A stretch of DNA of 64,000 nucleotides, from the NCBI GenBank assembly GCA_025774605.1, contig JALGVR010000001.1, positions 2,634 to 66,633 of the forward strand, given 5' to 3'. Shown here in pieces: positions 40,917 to 43,809 of this stretch. The stretch is from a bacterium (lineage in GTDB: Bacteria; Electryoneota; AABM5-125-24; Hatepunaeales; Hatepunaeaceae). The translations under genes were made by a program, and so were the position numbers. The notes beneath the pieces are model-generated. The model did not search any database. It saw only the letters and a program-made list of their open reading frames with translations, and was not told the DNA's origin. Each line of letters starts with the position of its first letter. Position 1 is the stretch's first letter.

Positions 40917-42460
40917 GCCGTGACACCTCGGAAACTGGAACCATTTACCTGGTGGGCGCAGGCCCGGGACATCCCGGCTTGATAACCAGGCTCGGTCACC
41001 AACTGTTGCAGGATTGCGACGCGGTGGTTTACGACGACCTGGCTCCGTATGAGCTGGTCGCCGAGCTGCCGCCGAATATCGTCAGGTATTACGTGGGTAA
41101 ACGCGCCGGCAGGCATTCCCAGCCGCAGAAGGAGACCAACAGCCTGCTGATCAGCCTGGCGGAAAAGGGGCTGAACGTGGTCAGGTTGAAGGGCGGCGAT
41201 CCGTTCATCTTCGGCAGGGGCGGTGAGGAGGTAACCAGGCTCAAGGAGGCGGGGGTGCCCTTCCGGATCGTTCCCGGCGTGACGGCGGTCACAGCTGTCG
41301 CTGCGGGCGCCGGCATTCCGCTGACCGACCGGCGGGATGCAGCATGGCTGCTGATGGCGACAGGTCATGAAGCTGCTTCTGCGTCGCTGCCGGTACCGTG
41401 GGAGGAGATCGCCGCACTCAGGGGGGGGACAGTGGTGATTTACATGGGTGTCGGCGCATTGCCGGAGATTGTGAAACGGTTGATATCGGGTGGAGCGGCG
41501 CCGGATACTCATGCGGCGGTGGTCGTCAGCGGTTATACGGGCGCTCAGCGGATTGTTACTGCGGAGCTCGCCGATCTGCCGCGATCCTGCGCGGAGCAGG
41601 ATGTGCAACCGCCGGCGCTGGTGATACTTGGTGACGTGGTGAAGCGGATGGATGGGGTGGGCTGGATGCAGCCGGGTGTGCTGGCCGGCAGGAGGATACT
41701 GATTACTCGACCATACGAGGCTTCCGCCGAAATCTGCGGCATACTGCGCAAGTATGGCGCCGAGCCGCTGCCGTTGCCGACCATTGAAATCCGACCGTTT
41801 GAGGATGTTCCGGGCTGGGACGGCTTTGAACGGTCGTCGGGGCGTCACGGCTGGATTGTTTTCACCAGCCGCGCCGGCGTCCAACATTTCCTGGATGGTT
41901 TATCACGGCGCGGTCATGATCTGCGCTCCCTGCATGATCTTGAGATTGCCGCGGTCGGACCGGGAACCGCTGGTGCTTTGTGGGAGAGGGGACTGAAAGC
42001 CGGTTTGGTCCCGACTGTCGCCACGGTGGAGCGGTTGGCCGAGGAGTTAACCGCGGAAAAGAACCTGCGTGGAGCGGTTGTCGTAAGGGTTCGCGGCGAT
42101 CTAAGCGATGATACGATCGAGAAAGCCGTCGCTTCGAAGGGGGCAGGGATTGTCCGGTTGACGGTCTATCGCACCATGACCCCCGAATGGGAGCCGCACT
42201 GGGTGGAGAACGTCAAGGAATATCCCCCGGATTACATCACTTTCACGAGTGGCTCGACGGTTGACGGGTTCGTCAAAATCCTCGGTCGGGGAGAGGCGTT
42301 GTCGGTGGCTGCGCGGTCGAAGGTCGTATCAATCGGTCCCGTGACGACAAAGGTGATCGAGGATTATGGTATGGAAGTCGCGGCGGAAGCCGCATTGCAC
42401 ACTCAGGAAGGGGTGGTGAAGGCGATTCTTCTTCTGGGGAGGCCGGTCACTCCTGTCTGA
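40913..42460 (+). CDS. cobA/hemD: Bifunctional uroporphyrinogen-III C-methyltransferase / uroporphyrinogen-III synthase (CobA-HemD fusion).
   Basis: The N-terminal SUMT shows VYLVGAGPGHPGLITR and GGDPFIFGRGGEE. The C-terminal roughly 250 aa are HemD-like. 4-bp overlap with sirC. Confidence 0.85.
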   Translation: MSRDTSETGTIYLVGAGPGHPGLITRLGHQLLQDCDAVVYDDLAPYELVAELPPNIVRYYVGKRAGRHSQPQKETNSLLISLAEKGLNVVRLKGGDPFIFGRGGEEVTRLKEAGVPFRIVPGVTAVTAVAAGAGIPLTDRRDAAWLLMATGHEAASASLPVPWEEIAALRGGTVVIYMGVGALPEIVKRLISGGAAPDTHAAVVVSGYTGAQRIVTAELADLPRSCAEQDVQPPALVILGDVVKRMDGVGWMQPGVLAGRRILITRPYEASAEICGILRKYGAEPLPLPTIEIRPFEDVPGWDGFERSSGRHGWIVFTSRAGVQHFLDGLSRRGHDLRSLHDLEIAAVGPGTAGALWERGLKAGLVPTVATVERLAEELTAEKNLRGAVVVRVRGDLSDDTIEKAVASKGAGIVRLTVYRTMTPEWEPHWVENVKEYPPDYITFTSGSTVDGFVKILGRGEALSVAARSKVVSIGPVTTKVIEDYGMEVAAEAALHTQEGVVKAILLLGRPVTPV

Positions 42461-42503
42461 CCAATGCACAGACATCAGATCCCGTTGGGCATGGGGGGAA
42501 AGT

Positions 42504-42701
42504 TCAAGCTTCACTAAGAAATTCCTTCTTGAACTTTTCCCATGATACCGTTTGCCTTTCCCGAAACTCCTTGCGCGCCTTTTCAACGTCGCGCTTAAGT
42601 GTGGGATCTGAGAGTATCTCGAGTGTGTCCAACAAGTCCTGGTATTCGTCCAAGGGAACACCCACGACCGGCTTGTCGCATTTGATGGTTAATGTGGGCA
42701 T
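42504..42701 (-). CDS. Phd/YefM-like type II antitoxin (copy 1; orphan, with only a remnant of its toxin downstream).
   Basis: 65 aa, MPTLTIKCDKPVVGV...LEILSDPTLKRDVEKA. A paralog of 43512-43709. The degenerate relE-like start (VKLEL...) lies at 42440-42500 with no intact ORF. Confidence 0.55.
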   Translation of the reverse strand: MPTLTIKCDKPVVGVPLDEYQDLLDTLEILSDPTLKRDVEKARKEFRERQTVSWEKFKKEFLSEA

Positions 42702-42715
42702 TGAGCCTCCAGGTC

Positions 42716-42937
42716 TTAATGTTCTAACAACCGCAATAAATCATCCCTTGTCAGTCCCGCCTGGTGCAAAATCCCAAGTAAGGTGCCCGGCGAGAGATCT
42801 TTATGTAAAGGAATGACGACTCGGAATCCGCCTTTACGCAAGCTCACATGACTGCCCTTCTGACGCACTTTCTTGAAACCGTCATTGGTCAAAGCGCGTA
42901 TCAGATCATCGCCGGAAAGAACCGGCAGCTTAGGCAT
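42716..42937 (-). CDS. hicA: HicA-family toxin (mRNA interferase, YcfA-like).
   Basis: MPKLPVLSGDDLIRALTNDGFKKVRQKGSHVSLRK...GTLLGILHQAGL is the typical HicA pattern. Overlaps the hicB end. Confidence 0.65.
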   Translation of the reverse strand: MPKLPVLSGDDLIRALTNDGFKKVRQKGSHVSLRKGGFRVVIPLHKDLSPGTLLGILHQAGLTRDDLLRLLEH

Positions 42938-43154
42938 GAGCGGGAACTCTAATGGGATAGAGAGCCACAACGGACTCCGTCACCGGCAGGTCCTCGTCGC
43001 CGAAGCTCTCAAGATAGAGCTCCACCGCCTCTTGGAGGTTGGCTTGCGCCTCCTCGATGGTTTTCCCCTGGCTCACCACCCCCAGCTCAAGACATCGCGC
43101 CACGAACCAACGTTTCTCCTTAGTGATGATTGATGTAAGTTCATTGCTCTTCAT
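42930..43154 (-). CDS. hicB: HicB-family antitoxin (UPF0150).
   Basis: 74 aa. EEAQANLQEAVELYLE motif of HicB N-domain-only antitoxins. Gene order hicB-hicA with an 8-bp overlap. Confidence 0.6.
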   Translation of the reverse strand: MKSNELTSIITKEKRWFVARCLELGVVSQGKTIEEAQANLQEAVELYLESFGDEDLPVTESVVALYPIRVPAHA

Positions 43155-43191
43155 TTTGATCCCTTGTCGGATTTAATGGTTATTGTGGGCA
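43150..43191 (-). other. 13-codon remnant/leader ORF (MPTITIKSDKGSK*) identical to the N-terminus of the phd-like antitoxins. Its stop overlaps the hicB ATG (ATGA).
   Basis: Seen directly. It shares the promoter/RBS block with antitoxin copy 2 (about 75 bp near-identical, A vs C copies). Confidence 0.5.
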
Positions 43192-43241
43192 TTGAGCCTC
43201 CAAATTTGGTGGGACGGGTATTACTGGCTTTCGTTTATGGC

Positions 43242-43268
43242 GCTGTTAAAGATCTCATTTGACAGCAC
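43242..43268. promoter_or_regulatory. Palindromic putative operator (gctgtTaaagAtctcAtttgacagcac) upstream of the leader/hicBA transcription unit.
   Basis: A near-identical perfect palindrome GCTGTCAAAGG-TCTC-CTTTGACAGC lies at 43761-43787 upstream of antitoxin copy 2. This placement is typical of antitoxin autorepression sites. Confidence 0.5.
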
Positions 43269-43270
43269 TA

Positions 43271-43522
43271 TTAATATATATCCTTACGATCACCTATTTC
43301 CAAGACCAGCACTTCCGGTTTTTTACGGTAAATGCGGTACAGAATGCGCCAATCACCCACCCGCCAGGATCGAACGCCGAGGTAAACACCATCCAGAGCT
43401 TTCCCTTGATAAGGATCTGCAGCGATTTCAAGAAGAGCGGCGCGAAGCCTCTGGGCGAGTGCAGGATTGTTCTTCATCTTCTTTAGCTGGCGCGCCACCT
43501 TGGAGGAAATTTTAAGCTTCAC
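43271..43522 (-). CDS. RelE/ParE-family toxin.
   Basis: 83 aa. ...GDWRILYRIYRKKPEVLVLEIGDRKDIY C-terminus typical of the RelE/ParE superfamily. Overlaps the upstream antitoxin by 11 bp. Confidence 0.7.
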   Translation of the reverse strand: MKLKISSKVARQLKKMKNNPALAQRLRAALLEIAADPYQGKALDGVYLGVRSWRVGDWRILYRIYRKKPEVLVLEIGDRKDIY

Positions 43523-43709
43523 TCATCTCCCTGCGCCAGAATTCCTCAAAGTCGATGCTTTTCCCATCCTCGTGCTCTTTGATAGCCGCGCGGATGTCGC
43601 TCATGAGCCGGCGGTTGGAGAGAACCTCGATGGTCTCCCTGAGAGCGTCATACTCATCTGAGGGGATAACCACAACCGGCTTGTCGGATTTGATGGTTAT
43701 TGTGGGCAT
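43512..43709 (-). CDS. Phd/YefM-like antitoxin (copy 2, paired with the RelE/ParE toxin). The start was moved to MPTITIKSDK.
   Basis: 65 aa, paralogous to 42504-42701. Confidence 0.65.
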   Translation of the reverse strand: MPTITIKSDKPVVVIPSDEYDALRETIEVLSNRRLMSDIRAAIKEHEDGKSIDFEEFWRREMSEA

Positions 43710-43760
43710 TGAGCCTCCAAATTCAAGTGGGACGGGCATTCCTGGCTGTCGCCTTATTGT

Positions 43761-43787
43761 GCTGTCAAAGGTCTCCTTTGACAGCAC
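43761..43787. promoter_or_regulatory. Perfect palindromic putative operator GCTGTCAAAGG-TCTC-CTTTGACAGC upstream of the phd-relE pair.
   Basis: Seen directly. A second copy is at 43242-43268. Confidence 0.5.
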
Positions 43788-43809
43788 TTTTAGAAGGCGT
43801 TTGACGCCA

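What the first reader, a model, noticed from the sequence alone, without database searches (positions are those of the whole stretch)
42460..43800. Toxin-antitoxin islet: hicBA cassette inserted after codon 10 of a phd-like antitoxin, leaving a leader peptide, an orphan antitoxin and a toxin remnant
Three copies of the same RBS plus MPT(I/L)TIK(S/C)DK start are present (43191, 42701, 43709). Copies at 43191 and 43709 share about 75 bp of upstream promoter, including a palindromic operator. The first copy is truncated after 13 codons, with its stop overlapping the hicB ATG. Downstream of hicA the phd-like gene resumes (42504-42701), but its RelE partner survives only as a degenerate stub (VKLEL..., about 42440-42500). 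An intact phd-relE pair follows at 43271-43709. This looks like cassette-style recombination between TA modules at a defined junction, placed right at the edge of the dsr/heme island.
Basis: seen in the sequence. Interest (0 to 1): 0.65.

Follow-up and report, generated by a model that had tools for sequence, protein, structure and literature searches.

The report
Mosaic toxin–antitoxin islet with phd stub
A 1.3-kb cluster of three small toxin–antitoxin gene pairs in which one pair (hicBA) lies between two copies of the first ten codons of a neighbouring antitoxin gene; it is real and shared among related uncultured bacteria, and it is a clear but fairly ordinary example of how these selfish modules recombine, borrow expression signals and decay.

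Summary
Three copies, and only three, of a 39-nt block (GGAGG ribosome-binding site plus ten codons MPT(I/L)TIK(S/C)DK) lie on the minus strand. They head phd1 (ATG 43709), a 13-codon stub (ATG 43192, not 43191) and phd2 (ATG 42701). The stub's TGA overlaps the hicB ATG. phd1–parE1 and hicBA are intact. parE2 survives as about 13 codons.

Four independent metagenome assemblies at about 98% identity show the same layout, so it is not an assembly artefact.

The event is not recent. The same stub–hicB junction occurs in at least three other lineages (L098, L127, L124). In two of them the stub is fused in frame to HicB. L127 has the identical parE2 deletion, and its TA block is 92–95% identical to the window next to a core gene at 76%. 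The block therefore spreads as a unit.

Other relatives show uninterrupted phd–parE tandems (L086), hicBA with its own leader region (L121, L125, L091) and an hicBA-free 'empty site' (L108).

Best reading: hicBA has captured the upstream region, ribosome-binding site and start codon of a phd cassette. Recombination at the conserved 5' block shuffles modules. The toxins and phd2 are decaying. Whether the origin was insertion, deletion or circle integration is unresolved, and the 'operator' is unproven. This is a new variant of a known kind, of moderate interest.

The parts
43759..43787 (.). Palindrome 'pal1': GTGCTGTCAAAGG-aga-CCTTTGACAGCAC, perfect 13-bp arms, 22 nt after the stop of the DHODH-like gene
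   Evidence: Inverted repeat I4. The same core TGTCAAAGGAGACCTTTGACA occurs between cassettes in L086, L100, L108 and L127.
43727..43750 (-). Degenerate tagged hairpin (GACAGCCAggaaTGCCCGTC + CCAC), the same element as GACAGnCA-loop-TGnCTGTC-C(C/T)AC in relatives
   Evidence: On the opposite strand it reads GT(A/G)GG followed by a hairpin.
43680..43718 (-). 5' block, copy C (ribosome-binding site plus codons 1-10 of phd1)
43512..43709 (-). phd1, a short (65 aa) YefM/Phd-like antitoxin
   Evidence: PF02604 at 22.4 bits, below the cut-off, covering profile positions 29-72. A profile of the family hits YefM 6l8e residues 26-78 at E=7e-5. Eighteen homologues are mostly 63-66 aa. No nonsynonymous change among strains.
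43271..43522 (-). parE1, a ParE/RelE-superfamily toxin (83 aa, GTG start, overlaps phd1 by 11 nt)
   Evidence: PF05016 at 43.7 bits over the full profile; TIGR02385 at 28.1 bits against a 27.9 cut-off
43240..43268 (.). Degenerate copy of pal1 upstream of the stub
   Evidence: repeat family D3
43209..43233 (-). Degenerate copy of the tagged hairpin upstream of the stub
   Evidence: Repeat family D5
43163..43201 (-). 5' block, copy A (one mismatch to copy C, three to copy B)
43151..43192 (-). 13-codon stub ORF MPTITIKSDKGSK*: ten phd codons plus an 8-nt linker from the hicB leader region, with TGA overlapping the hicB ATG
   Evidence: The junction is identical in L098. The stub is fused in frame to hicB in L127 and L124. 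Among strains it carries only synonymous differences.
42930..43154 (-). hicB, a short (74 aa) HicB-type antitoxin without a C-terminal DNA-binding domain
   Evidence: DUF7387 at 30.6 bits; HicB_lk at 20.9 bits over profile positions 22-56 of 123. 763 homologues of 73-74 aa, many named HicB. Protein 100% conserved among strains.
42716..42937 (-). hicA toxin (73 aa), whose ATG overlaps the end of hicB by 8 nt; intact here
   Evidence: PF07927 at 66.5 bits. Frameshifted by a 1-bp deletion near 42875 in L001, L002, L004 and L005.
42672..42710 (-). 5' block, copy B, starting 5 nt after the hicA stop; no palindrome or hairpin precedes it
42504..42701 (-). phd2, an orphan short Phd of a second subtype (47% identical to Phd1); intact, but with substitutions at conserved positions (S8C, V14G, G49R)
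   Evidence: In sister strains it carries E45* (L003), loss of the stop codon (L001, L002), and 5-6 nonsynonymous against 1-2 synonymous codon differences.
42475..42514 (-). parE2 remnant: GTG plus about 13 codons (VKLELSPHAQRDL), then a deletion junction
   Evidence: Aligned with intact parE2 of L086 and L108 and with parE3 of L098. The identical junction is in L127. No Pfam hit for the 61-aa run-on ORF.
42448..42474 (.). Conserved segment TGTCTGTGCAttgGTCAGACAGGAGTG spanning the cobA/hemD stop codon. It lies downstream of the intact parE3 in L098 and marks the distal end of the parE2 deletion.

Best explanation
This is an inherited, mosaic type II toxin–antitoxin islet in the variable interval between the PFOR/DHODH-like genes and the convergent cobA/hemD gene.

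It has three modules:
1. An intact short-Phd/ParE pair (phd1-parE1).
2. hicBA.
3. A dying pair (phd2 plus a 13-codon parE2 stub).

hicBA has lost its own 5' untranslated region down to the last 8 nt. It now sits behind the upstream region, GGAGG ribosome-binding site and first ten codons of a phd cassette.

Inferred expression:
- Ribosomes start at the phd start codon and translate the 13-codon stub.
- They terminate on a UGA that overlaps the hicB AUG and reinitiate there. In two sister lineages the stub is instead fused in frame to HicB.
- hicA is coupled to hicB by an 8-nt overlap.
- phd2 has no upstream element of its own, so it is expressed, if at all, as the third gene of this transcript.

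The two 39-nt repeats that flank hicBA are the conserved 5' ends of phd genes. They act as short homology for recombination that joins, swaps or deletes modules.

The arrangement arose before this lineage diverged and has since moved between related species as a unit. In the window's own population the toxins (hicA, parE2, partly parE1) and the orphan phd2 are decaying, while phd1 and hicB are conserved.

Shown: the anatomy, the family assignments, the conservation and transfer of the junction, and the decay pattern. Inferred: transcription from the shared upstream region, translational coupling, and the recombination mechanism.
For: Anatomy and significance. Family assignments.

Not an artefact: four independent assemblies are collinear at about 98% identity.

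The junction is old and retained:
- L098 is a different species at the same site (cobA/hemD 84% nt). It has the identical GACAAGGGATCAAAATGA junction.
- L127 lies in the same PFOR–cobA/hemD interval. Its stub is fused in frame through a 9-nt linker (87-aa HicB), and it has the same parE2 deletion junction.
- L124 has an in-frame fusion giving an 85-aa HicB.
- In every locus that has the stub, translation from the phd start flows into hicB. In L124 no Shine-Dalgarno sequence precedes the internal ATG.

Native hicB 5' regions exist:
- L121, L125, L123 and L091 carry hicB with its own upstream region.
- The window's linker GGATCAAA matches the last 8 nt of L121's (GAACCAAA) at 6 of 8 positions.

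Module shuffling at the block, window vs L098:
- Block A 95%, hicB 93%, hicA 90%, block B 89%.
- The phd body then drops to 51%.

Transfer as a unit, window vs L127:
- 92–95% from block A through the non-coding parE2 remnant.
- 75.6% in the adjacent cobA/hemD.

Homology of the block:
- phd1 and phd2 share 28 of 30 nt in codons 1–10 but 78 of 141 afterwards.
- Across 19 distinct phd genes, codons 7–11 show low synonymous diversity.

Decay among strains:
- hicA is frameshifted in four of five strain contigs.
- phd2 has 5–6 nonsynonymous against 1–2 synonymous differences, plus a nonsense mutation and a stop-codon loss.
- phd1, hicB and the stub show only synonymous changes.

No integrase or transposase lies within ±10 kb.
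Against: - No promoter was identified in the shared upstream region. The only sigma-70-like hit, at 43302–43273, lies inside the parE1 3' end.
- hicB keeps a weak Shine-Dalgarno sequence of its own (AAGG, 7 nt before the ATG), so coupling may not be required.
- No RNA structure links the stub to the hicB start (z = 0.13).
- The hicB tree is short (225 nt) and weakly resolved inside the stub-bearing clade. 'One gain, one loss in L121' is therefore only the most parsimonious reading.
- Most comparators are short metagenome contigs from unidentified organisms.
- The genome collection held no close relative; the best cobA/hemD match was 45%.
- Higher identity of the TA block could in principle reflect constraint rather than transfer. 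That is unlikely for a dead parE stub and for synonymous sites.
Confidence: 0.6

Rival explanations
1. One reading: a mobile hicBA cassette inserted into a phd-parE operon after codon 10. The insertion duplicated the 39-nt target and split the gene into a leader and a resumed phd2.
For: - L086 has exactly the window's layout minus hicBA: pal-phd1-parE1-pal-phd2-parE2.
- L108 and L121 are syntenic loci without and with hicBA.
- In L098 the coding parts of blocks A and B are identical (30 of 30), as expected for a duplicated target.
Against: - A 39-nt target duplication fits no known transposition chemistry, and no transposase or integrase is nearby.
- In the only clean occupied-versus-empty pair, hicBA sits between the hairpin foot and the ribosome-binding site, not after codon 10.
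- In the window, block A is closer to phd1's block (1 mismatch) than to phd2's (3 mismatches).
- The event is shared by several lineages, so it did not occur in this genome.
Confidence: 0.15
2. The stub is a neutral fossil. It was left when a deletion in a tandem cassette array removed phdX codon 11 through the hicB 5' region. hicB is translated from its own weak Shine-Dalgarno sequence, and the stub ORF has no role.
For: - Tandem arrays of these cassettes are common (L086, L091, L102).
- One deletion creates the junction.
- AAGG lies 7 nt upstream of the hicB ATG.
- No conserved RNA structure was found.
Against: - The stub's reading frame ends on, or runs into, the hicB start in all four lineages despite linker indels (8 nt, 9 nt, and a linker about 5 nt shorter).
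- L124 has no Shine-Dalgarno sequence before the internal ATG.
- A second deletion is needed to explain why phd2's ribosome-binding site abuts the hicA stop.
Confidence: 0.2
3. The three copies are an assembly artefact of a collapsed or mis-joined repeat.
For: The repeats are short and similar. One low-coverage contig (L004, coverage 1.3) joins the phd1-type upstream region directly to stub-hicB. The switch falls inside a 40-nt identical stretch, which could be a chimera.
Against: - The window's layout is reproduced base for base, with strain-level SNPs, in L001, L002/L093, L003 and L005 from different samples and assemblers.
- The stub–hicB junction is also present in the more distant L098, L127 and L124.
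Confidence: 0.01
4. The palindromes and tagged hairpins at the cassette boundaries are sites for a dedicated recombinase, as in an integron or a REP/RAYT system. The islet would then be a site-specific cassette array.
For: - pal1, pal2 and the GT(A/G)GG-tagged hairpin recur at almost every cassette boundary in relatives. They also stand in front of unrelated genes: a DUF4258-like gene in L086 and the DHODH-like gene in L121 and L108.
- hicBA in L121 starts exactly at the hairpin foot CTACT.
- GTAG-tagged palindromes are a known REP class (PMC3733652).
Against: - No integrase, RAYT or transposase lies within ±10 kb.
- No attC-like R'/R'' boxes are visible.
- Only two degenerate hairpin copies occur in 64 kb, both inside the islet.
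- The junctions that define the finding (codon 10 | hicB −8; hicA stop +5 | ribosome-binding site) are not at the palindromes.
Confidence: 0.07
5. The 13-codon ORF is a regulatory leader peptide (attenuation or a sensing upstream ORF) that evolved to control hicBA.
For: It has a strong ribosome-binding site, is short, and overlaps the hicB start.
Against: - Its sequence is simply the phd N-terminus.
- Its C-terminal part is not conserved: SDKGSK, SDKATE fused, YKKK fused.
- No terminator or antiterminator fold is present, there is no Rfam hit, and no terminator-like site lies in the leader.
Confidence: 0.03

Closest known systems
Phd/YefM–ParE/RelE type II toxin–antitoxin modules
   Same: Small antitoxin gene overlapping a downstream ParE/RelE-fold toxin gene. 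The antitoxin's C-terminal half is specific to the toxin subtype. The middle part is YefM-like.
   Different: The antitoxins are only 63–67 aa and begin at YefM residue 26 or so. They lack the beta1-alpha1 part of the canonical N-terminal domain, and Pfam scores are below the cut-off. Autoregulation through the palindromes is therefore doubtful.
HicAB type II toxin–antitoxin modules
   Same: HicA domain toxin (66.5 bits). In this family the antitoxin hicB lies upstream with an overlapping stop/start. Homologues are annotated HicB.
   Different: HicB is the 73–74 aa short form without a C-terminal DNA-binding domain. Here it has lost its own 5' region and is expressed behind a phd-derived stub or as a stub–HicB fusion.
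Chromosomal TA islands and TA cassettes in sedentary chromosomal integrons
   Same: Several unrelated TA modules packed head to tail, repeated palindromic elements between cassettes, variable content between relatives, decaying toxins and orphan antitoxins (established knowledge; comparative analysis in PMC2701414).
   Different: No integrase and no attC-type sites were found. The informative junctions lie inside a coding 5' block, not at the inter-cassette palindromes.
Termination–reinitiation coupling at ATGA overlaps, and promoter or ribosome-binding-site capture by gene fusion
   Same: The upstream ORF's stop overlaps the downstream start. The downstream gene has only a weak Shine-Dalgarno sequence of its own. 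Sister lineages toggle to an in-frame fusion.
   Different: The upstream ORF is the truncated head of a different antitoxin gene. Coupling is inferred, not measured.
GTAG-tagged repetitive extragenic palindromes (REP/BIME; PMC3733652, PMC2817692)
   Same: A GT(A/G)G tag next to a 8-bp-stem hairpin in intergenic positions. Palindromy is kept through symmetric changes: GACAGGCA/TGCCTGTC versus GACAGACA/TGTCTGTC.
   Different: Not high-copy in this 64-kb window: two degenerate copies, both in the islet. No RAYT gene was seen. The association with TA cassettes may be a sampling bias, because the loci were fetched with TA queries.
Translocatable units that integrate by homologous recombination (Campbell-type integration of a circle carrying one repeat)
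   Same: A passenger segment (hicBA) flanked by direct repeats of a sequence that pre-exists at the target. The same unit is found in front of different phd bodies (window and L127 vs L098).
   Different: The homology is only 39 nt. No circle or excision product has been observed. This is a resemblance of mechanism, not a membership claim.

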